Below are positions 3,910 through 60,568 of a DNA stretch of 64,000 nucleotides, piece by piece; the stretch's first letter is position 1, and the number at the start of each line of letters is the position of its first letter. This DNA comes from Candidatus Falkowbacteria bacterium (lineage in GTDB: Bacteria > Patescibacteriota > Patescibacteriia > UBA11705). The stretch covers positions 201,631-265,630 of the forward strand of contig DOZJ01000006.1 in NCBI GenBank assembly GCA_003518055.1. The letters are read 5' to 3'. Both the position numbers and the translations under genes were made by a program. The notes under the pieces are model-generated. The model saw nothing but the letters and a program-made list of their open reading frames with translations. It was not told the origin of the DNA and did not search any database.

Positions 3910-5076
3910 ATGTCTTATAGACGATTGAAACAATCAAAATCATCAAAGGCGCGGCGAGGTCAGCTGACAACGCGACGCGGAGTATTGGAAACGCCGTTTT
4001 TTATGCCGATCGCGACCAAAGCAGCGGTTAAAAGTTTGACTTATGAAGATTTGCAAGCGCTCGAGGCGCAAATTGTGCTCAGCAATACATATCATTTGAT
4101 GCTCAAGCCGGGAAATTCATTGATAAAAAAAGTTGGAGGATTGCATCACTTTATGAATTGGGATAAACCGATTTTAACCGATAGCGGCGGTTTTCAGGTG
4201 TTTTCATTATCCAAAATCAGAAAGATTACCGAAGAAGGGGTTGAATTTCGGTCACACATTGATGGCAGCAAACACTTTATAAAACCGGAAGATTCAATTC
4301 AGATTCAGTTGGATTTGGGGTCGGATATTGTCATGGCTTTTGATGAATGTGTGGAATTGCCGGCGAAAAAAGAATATCTGGAGAAATCCGTGGAGTTGAC
4401 AACGAGATGGGCGAAGCGGTGTCAAGAGTATTTCGTTTCAAATTTACGAAAGGTTACGAATAATACGAAAACAAGACAGCCATTATTGTTTGGGATTGTG
4501 CAGGGAGGGTTGGATAAGGGGTTGCGCAAAAAAAGTGCTCAGGATTTGGTGAGTATTGGTTTCGACGGTTATGCGATTGGAGGCTTGTCCGTGGGAGAGT
4601 CGGAAAAAGAAATGTATAAAGTGTTGGATTATATCACTGATGAATTACCGGAAGATAAGCCCAGATACCTCATGGGTGTTGGCCGACCGGAAAACATCAT
4701 AAACGCGGTTAAAAGAGGTGTGGATATGTTTGATTGCGTGATTCCGACCAGAGAGGCGAGGCATGGGCGGCTCTACCTGTGGCGTGATGGGTTACGAAAT
4801 TACAAAAGGTTGCGAAAGGTTACAAAAACTAAACAGCTAAATATTTTAAATAATCCGAAGAGTTGTTATAAAACAATCAACATCACGTCGGAAAAGTATT
4901 CAAAGAAGTTTGAGCCGATAAACGCGGAATCGAAATTTCCGGTGTTGAGGAATTATACCAAAGCGTATTTGAGGCACTTGTTTTCTGTTAACGAACCTTT
5001 GGCCATCAGATTGGCGACTTTGAACAATTTGGAGTTTTATTTGGGATTGATGGAGAAAATTAGGCGGGCGATATAA
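3910..5076 (+). CDS. tgt: queuine tRNA-ribosyltransferase Tgt (divergent, zinc-site cysteines absent)
   Basis: TIM-barrel Tgt motifs are present (LTDSGGFQV, FDCVIPTR, GVGRPE). The region that normally carries CxCxxC is replaced by a lysine-rich insertion, and a second small insertion lies at 4441-4470. Confidence 0.85.
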   Translation: MSYRRLKQSKSSKARRGQLTTRRGVLETPFFMPIATKAAVKSLTYEDLQALEAQIVLSNTYHLMLKPGNSLIKKVGGLHHFMNWDKPILTDSGGFQVFSLSKIRKITEEGVEFRSHIDGSKHFIKPEDSIQIQLDLGSDIVMAFDECVELPAKKEYLEKSVELTTRWAKRCQEYFVSNLRKVTNNTKTRQPLLFGIVQGGLDKGLRKKSAQDLVSIGFDGYAIGGLSVGESEKEMYKVLDYITDELPEDKPRYLMGVGRPENIINAVKRGVDMFDCVIPTREARHGRLYLWRDGLRNYKRLRKVTKTKQLNILNNPKSCYKTINITSEKYSKKFEPINAESKFPVLRNYTKAYLRHLFSVNEPLAIRLATLNNLEFYLGLMEKIRRAI

Positions 5077-5143
5077 GGGGTGTTTGGAGAACAACGATTT
5101 TTGCGATGAAGGCGAATTTTGAAACAGGGTGGAGGTTTCTTCG

Positions 5144-5313
5144 TTTGACAGTTGACGGAGGCTGTCACGCCTGCCTGCCGGCAGGCAGGGCGCTACTTCG
5201 TACGCCTCGCAGCAAGAAAGAGAGGATTTTTTGCGAGGAAGGTACGACGAAGCAAACTACGATTGGCTGCTAATGGAGGCTGCTGCGTCGGTACTGCGTA
5301 CTCCTCGCAGCAA
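5144..5313. repeat. repeat family R1 (two units plus spacer; the first unit carries the R2 palindrome) upstream of the GIY-YIG gene
   Basis: Consensus unit TTGACAGCTAA(T/C)GGAGGCTGC(C/T)GCGTCGTTACTGCGTACTCCTCGCAGCAA. Units lie at 5144-5216 and 5265-5313, joined by the spacer TTTGCGAGGA(A)GGTACGACGAAGCAAACTACGA. Confidence 0.8.
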
Positions 5314-5326
5314 CAAACGTTTATCT

Positions 5327-5647
5327 ATGGGAGGGTTTGTATATATAATAACAAATAAATATAACACAGCTTTGTATGTAGGATCGGCAACTGATCTGCT
5401 GTTTAGAATTCAACAGCATAAGAACAAGGCATATAAGAGTTCATTTTCGGCTAGATATAATATTTCAAAATTGGTTTATTTTGAATGTTTTAATAGCAGA
5501 TATGAGGCATATCAACGAGAATATCAAATAAAGTCAGGATCAAGGGCTAAAAAGATTGCGTTAATAATAAAAGCGAATCCAGATTTTGATGATCTTTATG
5601 ATGATATTGTTTTAAATGGGATTGAAAAAAGTATATATAATAAATAG
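5327..5647 (+). CDS. GIY-YIG nuclease superfamily protein (YhbQ/UPF0213-like, ~106 aa)
   Basis: GFVYIITNKYNTALYVGSATDLLFRIQQH matches the GIY-YIG core of the short stand-alone family. The ATG at 5327 was chosen because the upstream part of the listed ORF is repeat sequence. Confidence 0.7.
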   Translation: MGGFVYIITNKYNTALYVGSATDLLFRIQQHKNKAYKSSFSARYNISKLVYFECFNSRYEAYQREYQIKSGSRAKKIALIIKANPDFDDLYDDIVLNGIEKSIYNK

Positions 5648-5686
5648 TGTAGCGTGAATTACGGAGCTGGTTGGAGACTGCTAAGA

Positions 5687-5922
5687 TTGACAGCTAATGG
5701 AGGCTGCTTCGTCGTAACTGGGTTGATGTGGAGTTCGAAACCGGGTGGAGCTGCTACATCTGTCAGCTAACGGAGGCTGCCACGGCGTTACTGCGTACGC
5801 CTCGCAGCAAAAGAAAGAGATGATATTTGCGAGGAGGTACGACGAAGCAAACTACGAACAAGCTGCCGTGTTTGCCTACTGATGGAGGCTGCTTCGTCGT
5901 TACTACGTACTCCTCGCAGCAA
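5687..5922. repeat. repeat family R1 (three units plus spacer) downstream of the GIY-YIG gene
   Basis: Units at 5687-5720 (truncated), 5758-5810 and 5876-5922. The same spacer as upstream lies at 5826-5857. Confidence 0.8.
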
Positions 5923-5948
5923 TAAAAAGGGGTTATGTTCAAAATAAT

Positions 5949-6680
5949 ATGTCTGCAAGCGATGTTGTAAAAGAATTAAAAGCTTTAAAAGATCCGAAAA
6001 AAGCCAATAATTTGGCTTGGTTTTTTAAAACAGGGAAGGGTGAATACGGCGAAGGTGATAAGTTTCTGGGAATCGTGATGGGTGATTTGCGGCAAATAGC
6101 GAAAAAATATTGTGACTTGCCGTTAACTGAAGTTCAAAAATTGGTTGTTAATCCTTACCACGAAATAAGAATGGCCGCGTTGTTGGTTCTGGTTTATAAA
6201 GTTACGGATTTACAGAAATTACGAATATTACGAACACGAGAAATTGATTCTTTGAAACAAATTTACGATTTTTATTTGAAAAATACTAAATATATTAATA
6301 ATTGGGATTTGGTGGATGTGACAACGCCGCAAATCGTAGGGAATTATTTGGTCAATCGAGACCGGAAGATATTATACAAATTAGCCAAGTCAAAGAGCTT
6401 GTGGGAAAAAAGAATCGCTGTCTTGGCGACCTTTTCGTTTATTAAAAATAGGGATTTTCATGATGCCTTGAAAATAGCTGAAGTTTTACTTAATGATAAT
6501 CATGACTTGATTCATAAGGCGGTAGGATGGATGCTCCGGGAGGTGGGTAAACGAGATCCGGCGGAGGAAAGAGCTTTTCTTGATAAACATGGTTTAAATA
6601 TGCCGAGGACGATGTTGCGATATGCGATTGAAAAGTTTCCGGAGCCAATGAGACAGAAGTATTTGAAAAGAAAATCCTAA
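5949..6680 (+). CDS. DNA alkylation repair enzyme (AlkD/AlkC HEAT-like repeat family)
   Basis: 243 aa with N-terminal KANNLAWFFKTGKGEYGEGDKFLG and a HEAT-repeat architecture typical of PF08713. Confidence 0.7.
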   Translation: MSASDVVKELKALKDPKKANNLAWFFKTGKGEYGEGDKFLGIVMGDLRQIAKKYCDLPLTEVQKLVVNPYHEIRMAALLVLVYKVTDLQKLRILRTREIDSLKQIYDFYLKNTKYINNWDLVDVTTPQIVGNYLVNRDRKILYKLAKSKSLWEKRIAVLATFSFIKNRDFHDALKIAEVLLNDNHDLIHKAVGWMLREVGKRDPAEERAFLDKHGLNMPRTMLRYAIEKFPEPMRQKYLKRKS

Positions 6681-12371: not shown

Positions 12372-12385
12372 AGCGAGTAAAGTAA

Positions 12386-12423
12386 AGAGAGATTAAGAGA
12401 ATTAAGAGATTTAGAGATTAGAG
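12386..12423. repeat. repeat family R3, solo copy (AGAGATTAAGAGAATTAAGAGATT)
   Basis: Matches the inverted repeats that flank the four-helix-bundle gene at 20544-20584 and 20977-21015. Confidence 0.7.
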
Positions 12424-18592: not shown

Positions 18593-18690
18593 GAGCTTCG
18601 GCTGGCACGGCCAGTACTATAGCTTTTTAAATGAGCTTCGGCTGGCACGGCCAGTACTATAGCTTTTTAAATGAGCTTCGGCTGGCGAGC
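18593..18690 (+). repeat. 40-bp tandem repeat x2.5 (GAGCTTCGGCTGGCACGGCCAGTACTATAGCTTTTTAAAT) immediately 3' of tRNA-Glu
   Basis: Two perfect copies and one partial copy. Each unit contains a CTGGC-acg-GCCAG hairpin followed by a T-run. Confidence 0.85.
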
Positions 18691-18714
18691 CAATATTGGC
18701 GAGATAAGGGGGAA

Positions 18715-18745
18715 AGAGAATTGAGAGATTAAGAGAATTAAGAAA
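18715..18745. repeat. repeat family R3, solo copy
   Basis: AGAGAATTGAGAGATTAAGAGAATTAAGAAA. Confidence 0.7.
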
Positions 18746-20409: not shown

Positions 20410-20543
20410 AAATTACTAGGCAGGTAAAAATATAAGCCGCTTCGGGGAAGCGGTTTTTGGTTTATCCACAGGTGGGTTTTGACGTTCGGTTTTTGTTTGG
20501 GTATAGTGGAGGTAGGCGAACAAGAAGCGAACAGAAGAAAGAT

Positions 20544-20584
20544 AATTGAGAGATTAAGAGAATTAAGAGATTGAGAGAGTGAGT
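20544..20584. repeat. R3 left inverted repeat flanking the four-helix-bundle gene
   Basis: AATTGAGAGATTAAGAGAATTAAGAGATTGAGAGAGTGAG, the reverse complement of the right-hand repeat at 20977-21015. Confidence 0.75.
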
Positions 20585-20609
20585 TAAAAAAAAGACAAAA
20601 TATTATTTT

Positions 20610-20981
20610 ATGCCTACTTCATATCGAGAATTAAGAATTTGGAAGAAAGGATACGATCTTCTTTTGGAGGTTTATGAAATAACGAGTCATTATCCAAATG
20701 GTGAAAAATTTGGCTTGGTTTCTGATACTAGACGTTCGGCTAATTCGATTATCGCCAATATTGCGGAAAGCCATGGGCGTTATTACTTTCTGGATAAAAT
20801 TAGGGTTTTATATATTGCTAGGGGTGAAGTTGAGGAAGTGAGAAGTCATTTAGAAGTGGCTTTTGGGGTGAATTATTTAACACAAGAAGTTTATAAAAAA
20901 TTAGATTTAGAGTATCAAGGTTTATTAATTGGTTTAAATGAATACATAAACAGCATTTTTAAAGAAAAAAATAAAACTTAA
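20610..20981 (+). CDS. four-helix-bundle protein (23S rRNA intervening-sequence protein / Avd-like family)
   Basis: 123 aa. YRELRIWKKGYDLLLEVYEITSHYP...GLVSDTRRSANSIIANIAESHGR matches the PF05635/TIGR02436 signature. Confidence 0.8.
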   Translation: MPTSYRELRIWKKGYDLLLEVYEITSHYPNGEKFGLVSDTRRSANSIIANIAESHGRYYFLDKIRVLYIARGEVEEVRSHLEVAFGVNYLTQEVYKKLDLEYQGLLIGLNEYINSIFKEKNKT

Positions 20982-21015
20982 TTCTCTTAATCTCTTTTTA
21001 TTCACTTAATTCTCT
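20977..21015. repeat. R3 right inverted repeat flanking the four-helix-bundle gene
   Basis: CTTAATTCTCTTAATCTCTTTTTATTCACTTAATTCTCT. Confidence 0.75.
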
Positions 21016-43470: not shown

Positions 43471-45045
43471 ATGCAAAAAAAACCAATAGTCTTGCTAATC
43501 CTCGACGGCTGGGGTTTGGCCCCGAAGTCAAAATTTAACGCGGTGGAGCAGGCCAAAAAGCCTAATTTCGACAAGTTGTGGAAAAAATATCCGCATACTT
43601 CGTTATCCGCGAGCGGGGATGGTGTCGGTTTGCCGGCGCGGCAGCCGGGAAATTCAGAAGCCGGTCATATGAACATCGGCGCTGGGCGTTTGGTGTTACA
43701 GGACACGATGATTATCAACCGCTCCATTGATGATAGAACTTTTTTTGGCAATACAGCGTTTTTGCACGCGTTTGATCATATAAAGGCCAACAAGTCGCGG
43801 CTGCATTTGATGGGTTTGGTCTCGGTTAACGGCAGCCCGCATAGTGATTTGAGGCATCTTTTTGCTTTGATTGAGTTGGCTAATGCGCAAAAACAACAAA
43901 AGATTTTTTTGCACCTTTTTACCGATGGCCGTGATTCGCCGCAGCATTCAATTTCTTCAATTATAAAAAAAATAAGATCACACGTACAAAAAATAAATGT
44001 TACCGGTGATATTGATGTTCAGATTGTAACTTTGATGGGTCGGTTTTACGCGATGGATCGGGGTAAAAATTGGAATCGAACCAAGGCGGCGTACGATTGT
44101 TTGGTTGAAAGTCGCTGCCGGCGTTTTCCTTCGGTTGAAGCGGCAATTGAGCACTCATATAACGCTGGTAATACGGATGAATATTTTGAGCCGTCAATTG
44201 TTGAAGATGATGATAATAAGGAACAGACACGGGTCAAAAAAAATGATGCAATTATATTTTTTAATTTGAGATCAGATCGAGCGCGGCAAATAGCGAAGGT
44301 GTTTGCGCAAAATGATTTTACCAAAAAAAACAACAAATCATTTACTCGGTCAAAGGTGGTGAAAAACGTTTTGTTTTGCGCCTTGACGGATTTTGGTCCG
44401 GATTTATCGAGTAATTTGGTCACTGCTTTTCCCGGTGATGATTTGATCGGCACGATGCCGTTTATCATGAATCGATATAAACAATTGTATATCGCTGAAA
44501 CGGAAAAATTTGCCCATGTAACATACTTTATCAACGGCGGTCATGCTGATCCGGTTTTTGCTGAGCAGCGCGTAAAGATTGATTCACCGAAAATACGCAG
44601 TTATGCGCAAAAACCGGAAATGTCAGTTTACAAAATTACCGATTATATAGTAAAAAGTATACAGAAGGGGACGGCAAATTTTATTGTGGCGAATTTTGCT
44701 AATCCTGATATGGTTGGGCATACCGGTGATTTTGAAGCCACGAAGGCGGCCATCTCGCATGTTGATAATTGTCTTGGGATGGTGGTGGCGGCGGTTCATG
44801 AACAGGAAGGAACATTGTTTGTTACCGCTGATCATGGTAACGCGGAAAAAATGATGGATGCCAATGGGGAAATTAATGTCCAGCATACGACCAACCCGGT
44901 GCCGTTCATTGTGGCTAACCATGATAAATCCATCCGGCTACGAAAAGGAATCTTGGGTGATATCGCGCCGACAATATACGATTATTTTGATATTATTAAG
45001 CCGGATTATGTGACTGGTAAGTCATTAATAACAAATCACAAATAA
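43471..45045 (+). CDS. gpmI: 2,3-bisphosphoglycerate-independent phosphoglycerate mutase, copy 1
   Basis: 524 aa with an LILDGWG N-terminus, a GNSEAGHMNIGAGR phosphoserine loop and an HTGDFEA metal-site motif. Confidence 0.85.
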   Translation: MQKKPIVLLILDGWGLAPKSKFNAVEQAKKPNFDKLWKKYPHTSLSASGDGVGLPARQPGNSEAGHMNIGAGRLVLQDTMIINRSIDDRTFFGNTAFLHAFDHIKANKSRLHLMGLVSVNGSPHSDLRHLFALIELANAQKQQKIFLHLFTDGRDSPQHSISSIIKKIRSHVQKINVTGDIDVQIVTLMGRFYAMDRGKNWNRTKAAYDCLVESRCRRFPSVEAAIEHSYNAGNTDEYFEPSIVEDDDNKEQTRVKKNDAIIFFNLRSDRARQIAKVFAQNDFTKKNNKSFTRSKVVKNVLFCALTDFGPDLSSNLVTAFPGDDLIGTMPFIMNRYKQLYIAETEKFAHVTYFINGGHADPVFAEQRVKIDSPKIRSYAQKPEMSVYKITDYIVKSIQKGTANFIVANFANPDMVGHTGDFEATKAAISHVDNCLGMVVAAVHEQEGTLFVTADHGNAEKMMDANGEINVQHTTNPVPFIVANHDKSIRLRKGILGDIAPTIYDYFDIIKPDYVTGKSLITNHK

Positions 45046-45090: not shown

Positions 45091-46668
45091 ATGGCTCAAA
45101 AAAAACCGTTTGCTTTGATTGTCATGGATGGCTGGGGCGTTGCTCCGGCTTGCGATAGTAATGGCGTGACTTTGGCCAAAACGCCTAACTTTAACAATTA
45201 TATCTCGAATTTTCCCACATATACGTTATTGGCTTCAGGCGAAGCGGTGGGCTTGTCGTGGGGGGAAATCGGTAACTCGGAAGTCGGCCATTTAAATTTG
45301 GGGGTTGGGAAAATTATGTTTCAGAATTTGCCGCGAATCGATCGTGAAATCAATGACGGTAGTTTTTTTTCCAATGAAAGCTTTTTGAAGGCACTGGAAC
45401 ACGTAAAGAAAAATCGAAGCCGCTTGCACTTGATTGGTCTCATGAGTGATGGCAAGGTTCATTCAACCATAACGCATTTTTACGCTTTTTTGGATTTAGC
45501 CAAAAAAAATAAAGTGAAAGACGTATATATTCATGGGTTTTTGGATGGACGAGATACTCTGTACAACGGCGGCAAGGGTTATGTTCAAGAAATGCTAAAT
45601 AAAATGAAAGAAATCGGGGTCGGTGAATTGGCGACTTTGAGTGGTCGTTATTATGCCATGGATCGGGATAATCATTGGGAAAGAGTTGAAAAAACATATA
45701 AAGCGATGACTGAGGGCGTTAGCGATGAGTATTTTGATGATCCGGGTGAGGCGGTTGAAGCTTCTTACGCCAAAAAAGTGTATGATGAAGAGTTTATTCC
45801 GGTGGTTATTGGTAAACAAGGAAAACCAACAGCTGTAGTTGAGGCCGGTGATGCGTGTATTTTTATTAATTATCGCTCTGATCGGGCACGGCAGCTGACC
45901 AAGGCTTTTGTGGCGGATGATTTCAACAAGTTTAATCGAACGAAGATTGATAATTTGGTTTTTGTGACCATGACCGAATATGAAAAGGGCTTGCCGGTTG
46001 ACGTGGCGATGTCAAGGGACGACGCGGAGACCTGTTTGGCGCGGGTCGCCAGCGAGTCAGGGGTAAGTCAGTATCATATCGCGGAAACGGAAAAGTACGC
46101 GCATGTTACGTTCTTTTTTAATGGAGGCAAGGAAGATGTTTTTAAAAATGAAGATCGTGATGTGATTCCATCGCCCCGCGTGGCCAGTTTTGCTGATAAG
46201 CCGGAAATGTCCGCGCTTGATGTTACTCAGAAATTATCAAAAGTAATGTTGCAGGAGAAACATGATTTTTATGTGGTTAATTATGCCAATCCGGATATGG
46301 TTGGTCATACCGGCGATATTAACGCGGTGATCAAGGCGGTTCAAACAACCGATTATTGTGTGGGACAGATTGTTGATTTGATTTTGTCCAAAGGCGGCAG
46401 CTGTATTTTGACGGCTGATCATGGCAACTGCGAGGAGCTGCGGAATTTGCAGACCGGGGAAATCAGCAAGGATCACTCAACCAATCCGGTGCCGTGCGTT
46501 GTTATCGGTGAAAAGTATCGCGGCAAAACCAACCCTGATTCTCAGGTTATTGGCGGTGATTTGAGTTTACTCCGGCCGGTGGGGTTGCTGTCCGATGTTT
46601 CGGCCACAGCGTTGAAAATGATGGATTTGGAGATTCCCAAGTACTTGAGTGGGAGACCGTTGATATAA
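45091..46668 (+). CDS. gpmI: 2,3-bisphosphoglycerate-independent phosphoglycerate mutase, copy 2 (tandem paralog)
   Basis: 525 aa with IVMDGWG, GNSEVGHLNLGVGK and HTGDINA. Divergent from copy 1 (~35-40% identity by eye). Confidence 0.85.
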   Translation: MAQKKPFALIVMDGWGVAPACDSNGVTLAKTPNFNNYISNFPTYTLLASGEAVGLSWGEIGNSEVGHLNLGVGKIMFQNLPRIDREINDGSFFSNESFLKALEHVKKNRSRLHLIGLMSDGKVHSTITHFYAFLDLAKKNKVKDVYIHGFLDGRDTLYNGGKGYVQEMLNKMKEIGVGELATLSGRYYAMDRDNHWERVEKTYKAMTEGVSDEYFDDPGEAVEASYAKKVYDEEFIPVVIGKQGKPTAVVEAGDACIFINYRSDRARQLTKAFVADDFNKFNRTKIDNLVFVTMTEYEKGLPVDVAMSRDDAETCLARVASESGVSQYHIAETEKYAHVTFFFNGGKEDVFKNEDRDVIPSPRVASFADKPEMSALDVTQKLSKVMLQEKHDFYVVNYANPDMVGHTGDINAVIKAVQTTDYCVGQIVDLILSKGGSCILTADHGNCEELRNLQTGEISKDHSTNPVPCVVIGEKYRGKTNPDSQVIGGDLSLLRPVGLLSDVSATALKMMDLEIPKYLSGRPLI

Positions 46669-60040: not shown

Positions 60041-60140
60041 TGTGATACAAAAGACACAAAACGTTACAAAAGGTTACAAAAATAAAAAATTGTGATACAA
60101 AAGTTACGAAAGGTTACAAGGGGTTACAAAAATAAAAATT
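60041..60140 (+). repeat. R4 tandem repeat (2 x ~49 bp, rich in GTTACAAAAGGTTACAAAA) upstream of the GxxExxY gene
   Basis: TGTGATACAAAAG…GTTACAAAAGGTTACAAAAATAAAAAAT x2. An inverted partner lies at 60532-60568, and related in-frame copies lie inside tgt at 4441-4470 and 4791-4830. Confidence 0.75.
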
Positions 60141-60515
60141 ATGGTCACTGTGTATTATAAGGATTTGAGTTATGAATTGAATGGTTTAGCATTTGAAATG
60201 TTTAAGTATCATGGCTACGGACAAAGAGAAAAAACATATTGTGATTATTATTGCTCATTGTTAGATGAGAAAAATTTGAAGTATAAAAGGGAAAGATATA
60301 TCCCTGCACTTTGTCACAATGAAAAAATATTAAAACGCTACGCAGATATTATTGTTGAAGATTTGGTGGTGATTGAAATGAAAGTGGGTAAGCGTCTTCG
60401 AAAAGTAAGTTTTGATCAAACTTTAGAGTATCTGAAATTATTAGATAAAAAATTGGGATTATTAATTTGGATTTCTCCCAATGGGGCTCAAGTTTATAGA
60501 GTTCTGAATGGTTAA
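60141..60515 (+). CDS. GxxExxY family protein (PDDEXK_3 nuclease-fold family)
   Basis: 124 aa. LNGLAFEMFKYHGYGQREKTYCDYY matches the GxxExxY motif region of PF13366. Flanked by inverted R4 repeats. Confidence 0.65.
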   Translation: MVTVYYKDLSYELNGLAFEMFKYHGYGQREKTYCDYYCSLLDEKNLKYKRERYIPALCHNEKILKRYADIIVEDLVVIEMKVGKRLRKVSFDQTLEYLKLLDKKLGLLIWISPNGAQVYRVLNG

Positions 60516-60531
60516 ATAAATATTATTTGAA

Positions 60532-60568
60532 TTTTGTAAGGTTTTGTATTGTTTTGTAATTTTGTAAC
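60532..60568 (-). repeat. R4 inverted copy downstream of the GxxExxY gene
   Basis: TTTTGTAAGGTTTTGTATTGTTTTGTAATTTTGTAAC, the reverse complement of GTTACAAAATTACAAAACAATACAAAACCTTACAAAA. Confidence 0.7.

What the first reader, a model, noticed from the sequence alone, without database searches (positions are those of the whole stretch)
3910..5076. Tgt lacks the canonical CxCxxC…H zinc site and carries in-frame insertions built from the GTTAC(G/A)AAAGGTTACAAAA repeat
The catalytic TIM-barrel motifs of queuine tRNA-ribosyltransferase are intact. Between GRLYLWRDG and YTKAYLRHL, however, the expected zinc-binding CxCxxC is replaced by a ~27-aa longer, lysine-rich segment (LRNYKRLRKVTKTKQLNILNNPKSCYKT…) encoded by 4791-4830. 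A second small insertion is encoded by 4441-4470. Both coincide with copies of the same short repeat (R4) that flanks the GxxExxY gene at 60041-60140 and 60532-60568. This indicates repeat-mediated remodelling of an essential tRNA-modification enzyme and loss of a normally invariant structural Zn site.
Basis: partly seen in the sequence, partly recalled or inferred. Interest (0 to 1): 0.55.

Follow-up and report, generated by a model that had tools for sequence, protein, structure and literature searches.

The report
Zinc-less Tgt with repeat-coded loop inserts
This candidate-phylum bacterium has an otherwise normal tRNA-modifying enzyme (Tgt) that lacks the "absolutely conserved" structural zinc site, an old trait shared by a whole clade, and separately it has recently gained two small surface-loop insertions written by a short dispersed DNA repeat.

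Summary
ORF 3910-5076 is a true bacterial Tgt of a Candidatus Falkowbacteria (Patescibacteria) genome. It scores 465 bits on TIGR00430 against a cut-off of 307, and all catalytic and preQ1-pocket residues are present. All four zinc ligands are missing: E. coli C302/C304/C307/H333 align to S341/F343/L346/N372. The zinc-free signature S-x-hydrophobic-x-x-L...N occurs in 104 of the 120 closest homologues, and none of the three whose DNA was read carries the repeat in tgt. A variable 13-35-residue hairpin expansion 19 residues upstream is also clade-wide and occurs in zinc-containing relatives too. Only 9-12 hairpin codons (4789-4833) and 3 loop codons (within 4441-4473) are specific to this genome. 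These are in-frame copies of a (GGTTACRAAA)n array, which is stop-free on one strand and translates to ...YKRLRKVTK.... The same repeat flanks a PD-(D/E)XK gene at 60 kb. A related 9-bp array sharing the TTACGAA core adds 9 codons to the DNA_alkylation gene. Related units form a C-terminal tail on RsmH in a sister genome. Zinc-site loss also occurs in Devosia, Daejeonella and a Hyphomonadaceae genome, although the literature states the ligands are absolutely conserved. Verdict: real, not an artefact, a new variant of a known enzyme, moderately interesting.

The parts
3910..5076 (+). tgt ORF, 388 aa: bacterial preQ1-type tRNA-guanine(34) transglycosylase, zinc-less Patescibacteria variant
   Evidence: The AlphaFold2 model has pLDDT 92.3. 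Foldseek TM-score 0.88-0.91 and rmsd 1.7 A to Z. mobilis TGT.
4930..4947 (+). Codons S341-K-F343-P-V-L346, which occupy the CxCxxC zinc-knuckle positions (E. coli C302, C304, C307)
   Evidence: In 104 zinc-less relatives the residues are S 97%, hydrophobic at 343 (F 64%, otherwise mostly I or L) and L 100%.
5023..5025 (+). Codon N372, which occupies the position of the fourth zinc ligand (E. coli H333, Z. mobilis H349)
   Evidence: N is present in 96% of zinc-less relatives.
4786..4875 (+). Hairpin-tip expansion, residues 293-322, net +28 aa against canonical Tgt. The downstream part, residues about 311-322, is modelled with high confidence and aligns with relatives. The upstream part is the repeat-coded insert.
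   Evidence: Hairpin length is 13-35 aa in all 120 relatives against 3 aa in 17 Tgts from other phyla. pLDDT block means: 291-300 = 71, 301-310 = 54, 311-320 = 92.
4789..4833 (+). Genome-specific in-frame repeat array, GGG TTA CGA AAT TAC AAA AGG TTG CGA AAG GTT ACA AAA ACT AAA, which encodes GLRNYKRLRKVTKTK. It accounts for 9-12 codons absent from the three closest orthologues.
   Evidence: Codon alignment, TRF, pattern statistics. The peptide equals the translation of (GGTTACRAAA)n.
4441..4473 (+). Second repeat-coded stretch, AAT TTA CGA AAG GTT ACG AAT AAT ACG AAA ACA, which encodes NLRKVTNNTKT in the loop after the long helix 154-183. It is 3 codons longer than in the closest orthologues and reads LRKVT in the same frame as the hairpin insert.
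   Evidence: pLDDT block 181-190 = 74.
6201..6236 (+). Related in-frame array of 9-bp TTACGAA-core units in the DNA_alkylation (AlkD-like) gene 5949..6680. It adds 9 codons (VTDLQKLRILRT region) that are absent from two orthologues.
   Evidence: TRF 6202-6234, codon alignment, Pfam PF08713.
60041..60138 (+). Intergenic array: a 50-bp unit repeated twice, made of GTTACAAAA/GTTACGAAA decamers, immediately upstream of the PDDEXK_3 gene
60141..60515 (+). PD-(D/E)XK (PF13366, GxxExxY-type) gene enclosed by the inverted repeat arrays
   Evidence: It was found in a single genomic context only.
60526..60567 (-). Inverted copy of the decamer array downstream of the PDDEXK_3 gene. Arms of 32-38 nt are 71-81% complementary to 60056-60137.

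Best explanation
Two unrelated events of very different age are superimposed on one gene.

(A) Ancient and clade-wide. The gene is the orthologous, catalytically intact preQ1-type Tgt of a Falkowbacteria genome. It belongs to a large Patescibacteria clade in which the structural Zn(Cys3His) knuckle of the C-terminal subdomain has been replaced by a conserved metal-free set of residues: S341, a hydrophobic residue at 343, L346 and N372. Four other positions co-vary with them: N338, P363, L371 and E375. I infer that the subdomain keeps its fold through side-chain packing and hydrogen bonds instead of metal, and that the enzyme still exchanges G34 of tRNA Asp/Asn/His/Tyr for preQ1. The clade, including its zinc-containing members, also has an expanded hairpin just before this subdomain and lacks the roughly 25-residue C-terminal helix of E. 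coli Tgt.

(B) Recent and specific to this genome. A short dispersed repeat with unit GGTTACRAAA, which is stop-free on one strand, has been inserted or expanded in frame. It adds 9-12 codons at the hairpin tip and 3 codons in a loop. A related array of 9-bp units sharing the TTACGAA core adds 9 codons to the nearby DNA_alkylation gene. Because three decamers make 30 nt, the array preserves the reading frame and reads G-Y-K/E-R-L-Q/R-K-V-T-K in any phase. The inserts are basic, are predicted to be flexible, lie at positions that vary in length across the family, and are most simply tolerated passengers.

Shown: ligand absence, clade distribution, repeat identity, insertion relative to orthologues, and independence of the two events. 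Inferred: metal-free folding, retained activity, and neutrality of the inserts.
For: - Family assignment and catalytic residues.
- All four ligands substituted.
- 104 of the 120 closest homologues lack CxCxxC, with S341 97%, L346 100%, N372 96%, N338 95%, P363 93%, L371 97% and E375 97%.
- No new conserved Cys or His column appears in the zinc-less clade.
- The NJ tree built on the barrel part only places zinc-containing Patescibacteria Tgts mostly towards the base, with most zinc-less ones in a large derived group.
- Hairpin length is 3 aa in 17 Tgts from other phyla and 13-35 aa in all 120 relatives, including the CCCH forms.
- The model has pLDDT 92.3, with 92-98 across residues 321-388 and 54-71 only over the repeat-coded residues. 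TM-score 0.88-0.91 to Z. mobilis TGT.
- Codon alignments show the repeat segments are absent from the three closest orthologues.
- Repeat statistics.
- The array translation equals the observed peptide, and only the + orientation is stop-free. All coding copies are in that orientation.
- Related units sit at other sites in the sister genome L081, forming the RsmH tail DVMKLQNVTNNYKK and lying just after the tgt stop.
- A cargo-less palindromic copy lies between atpB and atpE just outside the window, with fold z = -4.6.
- DNA is identical in three assemblies.
- The genome is not generally zinc-free, because Fpg keeps its CxxC...CxxC finger.
Against: - There is no biochemical evidence that any zinc-less Tgt is active or metal-free.
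- AlphaFold2 does not model metals and would reproduce the fold from homology alone, so high pLDDT is weak evidence for metal-free stability.
- The NJ tree has no support values, and zinc-less and zinc-containing sequences interleave near its base. The number of losses within Patescibacteria is therefore unknown.
- Insertion boundaries cannot be defined, because flanking codons are too diverged, and no target-site duplication is visible.
- The DNA_alkylation array has a 9-bp unit and could be a local triplet-codon duplication that shares only the TTACGAA core.
- Only about 84 kb of the genome was examined for the repeat.
- The public metagenome scan for the repeat returned mostly chance hits.
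- QueA, QueG and QueH were not found in the 64-kb window. This says nothing about the rest of the genome.
Confidence: 0.8

Rival explanations
1. One reading: insertion of the repeat disrupted and replaced the CxCxxC motif, so loss of the zinc site is a consequence of repeat-mediated remodelling in this genome.
For: The repeat-coded insert lies only 33 residues upstream of the former zinc motif and in the same subdomain.
Against: The former zinc motif aligns without gaps to canonical Tgt and is not interrupted. 104 of 120 homologues lack the ligands, and the three whose DNA I read lack the repeat in tgt. Zinc-containing relatives also have long hairpins.
Confidence: 0.03
2. The zinc-less protein is no longer a tRNA-guanine transglycosylase. 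It would be a decaying gene, a non-catalytic partner like eukaryotic QTRT2, or a repurposed enzyme such as the DNA-modifying DpdA.
For: In E. coli Tgt, mutating the zinc ligands abolishes activity. This rests on my own knowledge of Chong et al. 1995, which is listed as a reference in PMC3074131. The three basic tRNA-stem contacts of E. coli Tgt (K285, K292, R320) are N324, S331 and S359 here. No queA, queG or queH lies in the window.
Against: All catalytic aspartates and the preQ1 pocket (C147, V228, G224-G225, E230) are invariant across 115 relatives. The protein scores 465 bits on the TIGR00430 equivalog model but only 34 bits on DpdA against a cut-off of 200. The ORF is intact and in the same genomic context as in a relative. 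The C-terminal subdomain is among the best-conserved parts of the clade. QTRT2-type proteins lose catalytic residues, which has not happened here.
Confidence: 0.07
3. A metal site persists but uses different ligands: a relocated site, or a site built from S341/N372 plus other residues or water.
For: H285 is invariant in the clade and H356 is present in 71% of members. This window's protein has a Cys at 318 in the hairpin.
Against: The zinc-less clade has no conserved Cys or His column that the zinc-type lacks. C318 is S or I in the closest relatives. Positions 343 and 346 are hydrophobic (F/I/L and L) and cannot ligate metal.
Confidence: 0.04
4. The coding repeats are independent local slippage products of Lys/Arg-rich codons and are unrelated to the intergenic arrays. 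There is no dispersed or mobile repeat family.
For: The DNA_alkylation array has a 9-bp, codon-compatible unit. The inserts are short (9-36 nt). No target-site duplications were seen. The metagenome scan gave no clear family.
Against: The same 14-mer TTACGAAAGGTTAC occurs exactly in tgt (4444) and in the intergenic array (60104), and with one mismatch at 4810 and 60064, against 0.02 expected. The two tgt inserts read the repeat in the same frame. Related units occur at other sites in a sister genome. They also occur as a palindromic solo element and as inverted arms around a nuclease-family gene.
Confidence: 0.15
5. The repeat-coded basic arm is adaptive. It would supply tRNA-stem contacts that this Tgt otherwise lacks. 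This is compatible with the best explanation and differs only on neutrality.
For: The insert sits 3 aligned residues before the equivalent of E. coli K285. K285, K292 and R320 contact the tRNA stem, and the K285D and K292D mutants are inactive (PMC13416341). All three positions are non-basic here. The hairpin carries a net charge of +9, against a family mean of +1.7 with sd 2.8. The three host proteins (Tgt, an AlkD-like protein, and RsmH in the sister genome) all bind nucleic acids.
Against: The closest relatives manage without the insert. The basic composition follows automatically from translating the repeat. The segment is predicted to be disordered. Three host proteins are too few to establish a trend.
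Confidence: 0.2
6. The insertions are sequencing or assembly artefacts.
For: Short tandem repeats can be mis-assembled.
Against: The DNA is identical over 3.9-5.2 kb in three assemblies from different samples and pipelines. The reading frame is preserved in all three coding copies.
Confidence: 0.01

Closest known systems
Bacterial tRNA-guanine(34) transglycosylase Tgt (Z. mobilis 1PUD/1Q2R, E. coli; TIGR00430, PF01702)
   Same: It has the TIM-barrel fold (TM 0.88-0.91, 46% identity). It keeps the catalytic Asp nucleophile and general acid, the preQ1 pocket Cys/Val, and the C-terminal subdomain topology. The dimer-interface aromatic residues are conserved or conservatively replaced: Z. mobilis W326/Y330/H333 correspond to Y349/Y353/H356.
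   Different: All four zinc ligands are replaced by S, F, L and N. The hairpin before the subdomain is 28 residues longer. The last roughly 25-residue helix is absent. The E. coli tRNA-stem contacts K285, K292 and R320 are not basic.
Rickettsia palindromic elements (RPEs) and other intragenic MITEs that make in-frame fusions (reviewed in PMC10969869)
   Same: A dispersed non-coding repeat family also occurs inside unrelated housekeeping ORFs in frame. It adds a conserved peptide without destroying the host protein, at positions that vary in length and are modelled as flexible.
   Different: RPEs are about 150 bp long and palindromic. Here the coding copies are 27-45 nt, one-armed arrays of a 9-10-bp unit. 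Palindromic versions exist only between genes. No transposase, target-site duplication or high copy number has been shown.
Zinc-independent counterparts of zinc proteins, such as C-minus ribosomal proteins and QueD2 in the queuosine pathway (PMC9894224, PMC11672702)
   Same: A protein that normally needs zinc exists in a form without the zinc ligands. The queuosine pathway is already known to be metal-sensitive and to have a low-zinc paralogue.
   Different: Those are usually Zur-regulated second copies alongside the zinc form. QueD2 still binds metal. Here the zinc-less Tgt is the constitutive orthologue in the conserved genomic position, with no sign of a second copy in the data examined. 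Other zinc fingers in the window, such as that of Fpg, are kept.
Small cassette genes of the 23S-rRNA-intervening-sequence type (PF05635 four-helix-bundle protein; PF13366 GxxExxY PD-(D/E)XK protein)
   Same: The decamer arrays form inverted arms around a PF13366 gene. A PF05635 gene in the same window is likewise enclosed by inverted arrays of a different 9-bp repeat.
   Different: Neither cassette lies in an rRNA gene here. A link between these cassettes and the spread of their flanking repeats into ORFs is only a conjecture.

Membership tests
Bacterial Tgt (queuine/preQ1 tRNA-ribosyltransferase, TIGR00430 equivalog) | Whole-protein score above the curated equivalog cut-off, with a PF01702 TIM-barrel domain | tested here: met
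   TIGR00430 465.1 bits against 306.75. PF01702 482.6 bits against 26.3. Foldseek TM 0.88-0.91 to Z. mobilis TGT.
Bacterial Tgt (queuine/preQ1 tRNA-ribosyltransferase, TIGR00430 equivalog) | Catalytic aspartates (E. coli D89, D143, D264; Z. mobilis D102, D156, D280) | tested here: met
   Window D91, D145 and D275 align to them and are invariant in 115 relatives.
Bacterial Tgt (queuine/preQ1 tRNA-ribosyltransferase, TIGR00430 equivalog) | preQ1-type substrate pocket (Z. mobilis C158 and V233, G229-G230, E235) | tested here: met
   C147, V228, G224-G225 and E230 are invariant.
Bacterial Tgt (queuine/preQ1 tRNA-ribosyltransferase, TIGR00430 equivalog) | Structural zinc site CxCxxC...H in the C-terminal subdomain, described as absolutely conserved across three kingdoms (PMC3074131) | tested here: not met
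   The positions hold S341, F343, L346 and N372. No alternative conserved Cys or His exists. I therefore file the protein as an orthologue that is a zinc-less variant, not as a canonical member.
Bacterial Tgt (queuine/preQ1 tRNA-ribosyltransferase, TIGR00430 equivalog) | Guanine-34 to preQ1 exchange activity on tRNA Asp/Asn/His/Tyr, with the homodimer as the active form | not testable with these tools
   There is only indirect support: conservation of the catalytic residues and of the interface aromatic residues Y349, Y353 and H356.
DpdA (DNA-guanine transglycosylase) and archaeal ArcTGT | Score above the NF041059 or TIGR00432 cut-off | tested here: not met
   DpdA 34 bits against 200. ArcTGT 117 bits against 350.
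RPE/MITE-type intragenic repeat | Dispersed multi-copy repeat family found both between genes and inside ORFs | tested here: inconclusive
   There are 5 array sites in the 64-kb window, 1 more in 19 kb of flanks, and 3 in 13 kb of a sister genome. No whole-genome count was possible.
RPE/MITE-type intragenic repeat | In-frame insertion that preserves the host ORF and adds a family-specific peptide | tested here: met
RPE/MITE-type intragenic repeat | Element of about 100-400 bp with terminal inverted repeats and target-site duplications | tested here: not met
   Coding copies are 27-45 nt, one-armed and without a visible duplication. Only intergenic copies are palindromic.
Phase-variable coding microsatellite (contingency locus) | Perfect tandem repeats whose copy number varies between reads or strains and switches the reading frame | tested here: not met
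   The array matches at only 85% with 10% indels. The sequence is identical in three assemblies. Read-level variation was not testable.

The most novel reading that the evidence does not exclude
Metal-free Tgt is a recurrent natural solution. It has evolved at least four times: in a large Patescibacteria clade, in Devosia, in Daejeonella/Sphingobacteriaceae and in Hyphomonadaceae. This contradicts the textbook view of an absolutely conserved structural zinc site. In addition, in this lineage a stop-free 'coding-competent' decamer repeat, perhaps spread from the inverted arms of a PD-(D/E)XK cassette, grafts basic ...RLRKVTK... arms onto nucleic-acid-binding enzymes: Tgt, an AlkD-like glycosylase, and RsmH in a sister genome. 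In Tgt the arm would functionally replace the missing tRNA-stem contacts K285, K292 and R320.
Probability: 0.15. Interest if true: 0.7.

Novelty: new variant of a known kind. Interest (0 to 1): 0.45.

Why it matters
Tgt is a long-studied drug target and RNA-labelling tool, and its Zn(Cys3His) site is described as absolutely conserved. One evolutionary study discarded sequences that lacked these ligands as suspect (PMC3074131). A large clade with a conserved metal-free replacement, plus independent losses in cultivable Devosia and Daejeonella, gives a natural and testable system. It can show how a zinc knuckle is replaced by ordinary side chains, and whether queuosine modification can be uncoupled from zinc supply. 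This bears on the known metal sensitivity of the queuosine pathway.

The repeat-coded inserts are a small but clean example, outside Rickettsia, of non-coding repeats being read as protein. They come with a simple rule: the array is stop-free on one strand, and three decamers make ten codons.

For genome annotation, absence of CxCxxC should not be used to reject a Tgt call.

Tried and rejected
It returned mostly non-Patescibacteria genomes, so it served as canonical controls but not for mapping the zinc-less clade taxonomically.

The only notable hit was L101, a perfect (GGTTACGAAA)n run at a contig end in DNA of 53% GC. No family could be defined this way.

3. The promoter and terminator scan of the arrays around the PDDEXK_3 gene found nothing in the arrays. 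I dropped the idea that they are sigma-70 promoters.

4. I looked for queA, queG, queH, queCDEF and transporters by Pfam across about 60 window ORFs. None was present, and this is uninformative for the genome as a whole.

5. I considered genome-wide zinc economy. I rejected it for this window because Fpg keeps its zinc finger. MetRS also still shows a CxxC...CxxH-like knuckle in the ORF translation, but I did not test that further.

6. I considered a relocated metal site and rejected it.

7. I looked for extra copies of the PDDEXK_3 protein as a sign of mobility and found only one genomic context.

8. Four literature searches for a described zinc-less Tgt found none. The library is incomplete, so this is absence of evidence only.

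9. The peptide KRLRKV also occurs in the PDDEXK_3 protein (GKRLRKVSF), but with different codons. I treated this as chance.
Full report
**What is at the coordinates**

ORF 3910..5076 on the + strand encodes 388 aa. It matches Pfam TGT at 483 bits. It also matches the NCBIfam equivalog model for bacterial tRNA-guanosine(34) transglycosylase at 465 bits, against a cut-off of 307. DpdA and archaeosine TGT models score far below their cut-offs. An identical protein is deposited as Tgt of a Candidatus Falkowbacteria bacterium, in the Patescibacteria/Parcubacteria group. The neighbouring genes (glycosyltransferase, tgt, DNA_alkylation) are in the same order in the closest relative.

**Zinc site**

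phmmer against PDB sequences aligns the protein to Z. mobilis TGT in two blocks: query 10-292 with Zm 21-297, and query 323-387 with Zm 300-364. In the second block ECHCAVCQ aligns with ESKFPVLR, and TEHN aligns with TLNN. I fetched a real E. coli tgt to fix the numbering. C302, C304, C307 and H333 correspond to S341, F343, L346 and N372. The catalytic and pocket residues D89, D143, C145 and D264 correspond to D91, D145, C147 and D275.

**Where the extra residues are**

The extra residues do not replace the motif. Residues 293-322 (net +28) lie between E. coli D281 and G282, at the turn of the beta-hairpin that opens the C-terminal subdomain. This is 19 residues before the former zinc motif, which aligns without gaps. 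A second length difference, +9 against E. coli and +3 against the nearest relatives, lies in the loop after the long helix 154-183.

**How general this is**

Among the 120 best homologues (52-78% identity, named Falkowbacteria, Kuenenbacteria, Parcubacteria and Patescibacteria), 104 lack CxCxxC and 16 keep it.

- The zinc-less group has its own conserved signature: S341 97%, a hydrophobic residue at 343, L346 100% and N372 96%.
- Four further positions co-vary: N338 (D in zinc forms) 95%, P363 93%, L371 97% and E375 97%.
- No Cys or His column is conserved in this group that is not also conserved in zinc forms, so a relocated site is unlikely.
- All 120 have a long hairpin (13-35 aa), including those that keep CCCH. 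Seventeen canonical Tgts from other phyla have 3 aa, and Uhrbacteria has CCCH with 21 aa.
- A neighbour-joining tree on the barrel part only places the zinc-containing Patescibacteria sequences mostly towards the base, with most zinc-less ones in a large derived group. It has no support values and shows some interleaving.
- Both kinds also lack the roughly 25-residue C-terminal helix of E. coli Tgt.

The order of events was therefore hairpin expansion first, zinc loss later, and both long before this genome diverged.

**Outside Patescibacteria**

- Of 79 species-representative genomes, 76 have CCCH.
- A Hyphomonadaceae genome has S, C, S, H and a Sphingobacterium-like genome has S, L, D, H.
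- All 120 close relatives of the Sphingobacterium-like protein (Daejeonella/Sphingobacteriaceae) lack CxCxxC.
- Cultured Devosia species carry DEASPNPNCRRWS...SQINL, that is S, N, C, I.
- Among the best 150 representatives at 50% identity, 97 have CxCxxC, 37 do not and 16 lack the C-terminus. Some of the 37 look like frameshifted or partial predictions.

The literature I could search states absolute conservation of the four ligands and reports that sequences missing them were removed as suspect (PMC3074131). I found no paper describing a zinc-less Tgt.

**Structure**

With the 115-sequence alignment, AlphaFold2 gives pLDDT 92.3 and pTM 0.91. The zinc-less subdomain (residues 321-388) scores 92-98. 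Only blocks 291-300 (71), 301-310 (54) and 181-190 (74) are weak, and these are the repeat-coded parts. Foldseek places the model on Z. mobilis TGT with TM 0.88-0.91 and rmsd 1.7 A. AlphaFold2 ignores metals, so this shows fold retention by homology and does not prove metal-free stability.

**The repeat**

- The 14-mer TTACGAAAGGTTAC occurs exactly at 4444 (tgt loop) and 60104 (intergenic), and with one mismatch at 4810 (tgt hairpin) and 60064, against 0.02 expected.
- Codon alignment with the three closest orthologues shows that 4789-4833 contributes 9-12 codons they lack. It reads GGG TTA CGA AAT TAC AAA AGG TTG CGA AAG GTT ACA AAA ACT AAA. The segment 4441-4473 contributes 3 more. Both read LRKVT in the same frame.
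- A related case lies 1.1 kb downstream. The DNA_alkylation gene has 9 extra codons built from 9-bp TTACGAA-core units (6201-6236) that are absent from two orthologues.
- Translating (GGTTACRAAA)n explains the peptide. The + strand has no stop in any frame and gives the cyclic peptide G-Y-K/E-R-L-Q/R-K-V-T-K. The - strand has a stop in every frame every 30 nt.
- The tgt insert contains YKRLRKVTK, and all coding copies are in the stop-free orientation.
- Three decamers make ten codons, which matches the 9-12-codon size of the hairpin insert.

**The repeat elsewhere**

- It forms a tandem 50-bp unit upstream of a PD-(D/E)XK (PF13366) gene and an inverted array downstream of it. The arms are 32-38 nt and 71-81% complementary.
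- About 3 kb beyond the right end of the window, related units form a cargo-less palindrome between atpB and atpE. Its RNA fold is -22.3 kcal/mol with z = -4.6.
- In the sister genome that carries P0002, related units lie right after the tgt stop. They also encode a 13-residue C-terminal tail on RsmH (DVMKLQNVTNNYKK), which the window and another relative lack.

The family is therefore shared by the lineage and sits at different sites in different genomes. That argues for a dynamic dispersed repeat and against coincidence. I could not show a transposition mechanism, target-site duplications or a genome-wide copy number.

**Artefact check**

The gene and 2 kb on each side are identical base for base in three assemblies from different samples and pipelines.

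**Function of the inserts**

In the E. coli TGT-tRNA cryo-EM structure, K285, K292 and R320 hold the tRNA stem, and the K285D and K292D mutants are inactive (PMC13416341). These positions are N324, S331 and S359 here, and the insert begins three aligned residues before K285. The window hairpin has a net charge of +9, against a family mean of +1.7 with sd 2.8. An added tRNA-binding arm is conceivable. Against this, the nearest relatives lack the insert and the charge follows automatically from the repeat. I rate neutral tolerance as more likely.

**Context**

The window holds no queA, queG, queH or queCDEF, which says nothing about the whole genome. The genome is not generally shedding zinc sites, because Fpg keeps its CxxC...CxxC finger. 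The queuosine pathway is known to be metal-demanding and to have a low-zinc QueD2 paralogue in other bacteria (PMC11672702). A zinc-independent Tgt would fit a zinc-sparing logic, but nothing here tests that.

**Verdict**

The gene is a real, conserved, zinc-less variant of a well-known enzyme, and I found no published description of such a variant. It also carries two recent in-frame repeat inserts. These work like Rickettsia palindromic elements (PMC10969869) but do not meet that family's structural definition. The causal link between repeat and zinc loss is refuted.

Noticed in passing
window 5077-5948: The spacer between tgt and the DNA_alkylation gene is 870 bp. It holds a GIY-YIG ORF (5231..5647, PF01541) plus GC-rich palindromic sequence. 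The orthologous spacer in the closest relative (L081) is about 90 bp, so this looks like an inserted GIY-YIG element. The three coding repeat inserts lie within 0.3-0.7 kb on either side of it.
   Followed up: partly
window 20539-21015; also 12385-12420 and 18714-18743: A 23S-rRNA-intervening-sequence-type four-helix-bundle gene (20610..20981, PF05635) is enclosed by inverted arrays of a different 9-bp repeat, AAGAGAATT. The same repeat forms arrays at two other intergenic sites. This parallels the PD-(D/E)XK gene enclosed by the decamer arrays.
   Followed up: partly
L214:14285-14362 (same contig, about 3 kb beyond the right end of the window, between atpB and atpE): A cargo-less palindromic copy built from TTACGAA/TTACAAA-type units related to the decamer repeat. 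Predicted RNA hairpin of -22.3 kcal/mol, z = -4.6 against shuffles.
   Followed up: partly
L081:2170-2216 and L081:7129-7150 (sister Falkowbacteria genome): RsmH has a 13-residue C-terminal tail, DVMKLQNVTNNYKK, encoded by TTGCAAAATGTTACAAACAATTACAAAAAA. The window and another relative lack it. A further copy, ATACAAATGTTACAAATAAAA, follows the tgt stop codon.
   Followed up: yes
P0391-P0403 (Devosia spp.), P0121-P0240 (Daejeonella/Sphingobacteriaceae), L061 (Hyphomonadaceae): Tgt of these non-Patescibacteria lineages, some of them cultured, also lacks the CxCxxC zinc motif. Devosia has S, N, C, I. Daejeonella has S, L, D, H. Hyphomonadaceae has S, C, S, H. This contradicts the published statement of absolute conservation.
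   Followed up: partly
window 3910-5076, C-terminus, and relatives P0002-P0120: All Patescibacteria Tgts examined end 0-10 residues after the ...IRxxI helix. They lack the roughly 25-residue C-terminal helix of E. coli Tgt. The E. coli tRNA-stem contacts K285, K292 and R320 are N, S and S in the window protein.
   Followed up: partly
window 18593-18686: A perfect tandem repeat: a 40-bp unit, 2.3 copies, 100% identical (GAGCTTCGGCTGGCACGGCCAGTACTATAGCTTTTTAAAT), in an intergenic region.
   Followed up: no
window 43471-45045 and 45091-46668: Two adjacent paralogous genes for cofactor-independent phosphoglycerate mutase (iPGM_N plus Metalloenzyme domains).
   Followed up: no
L101:1600-1670 (metagenome contig Ga0066631_10067691): A perfect (GGTTACGAAA)n run of at least 6 units at the end of a contig with 53% GC, clearly a different organism. 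The decamer array therefore exists outside this lineage.
   Followed up: no
window 60141-60515: The PD-(D/E)XK protein contains GKRLRKVSF, the same KRLRKV hexapeptide as the repeat-coded Tgt insert, but it is written with different codons. Probably chance.
   Followed up: no
window 1-64000: GC skew is strongly and uniformly positive along the whole window, and nearly all genes in the first 25 kb are on the + strand. This is consistent with a single replichore arm. TTACGAA occurs 10 times on the + strand and never on the - strand, although most copies lie in the arrays.
   Followed up: no
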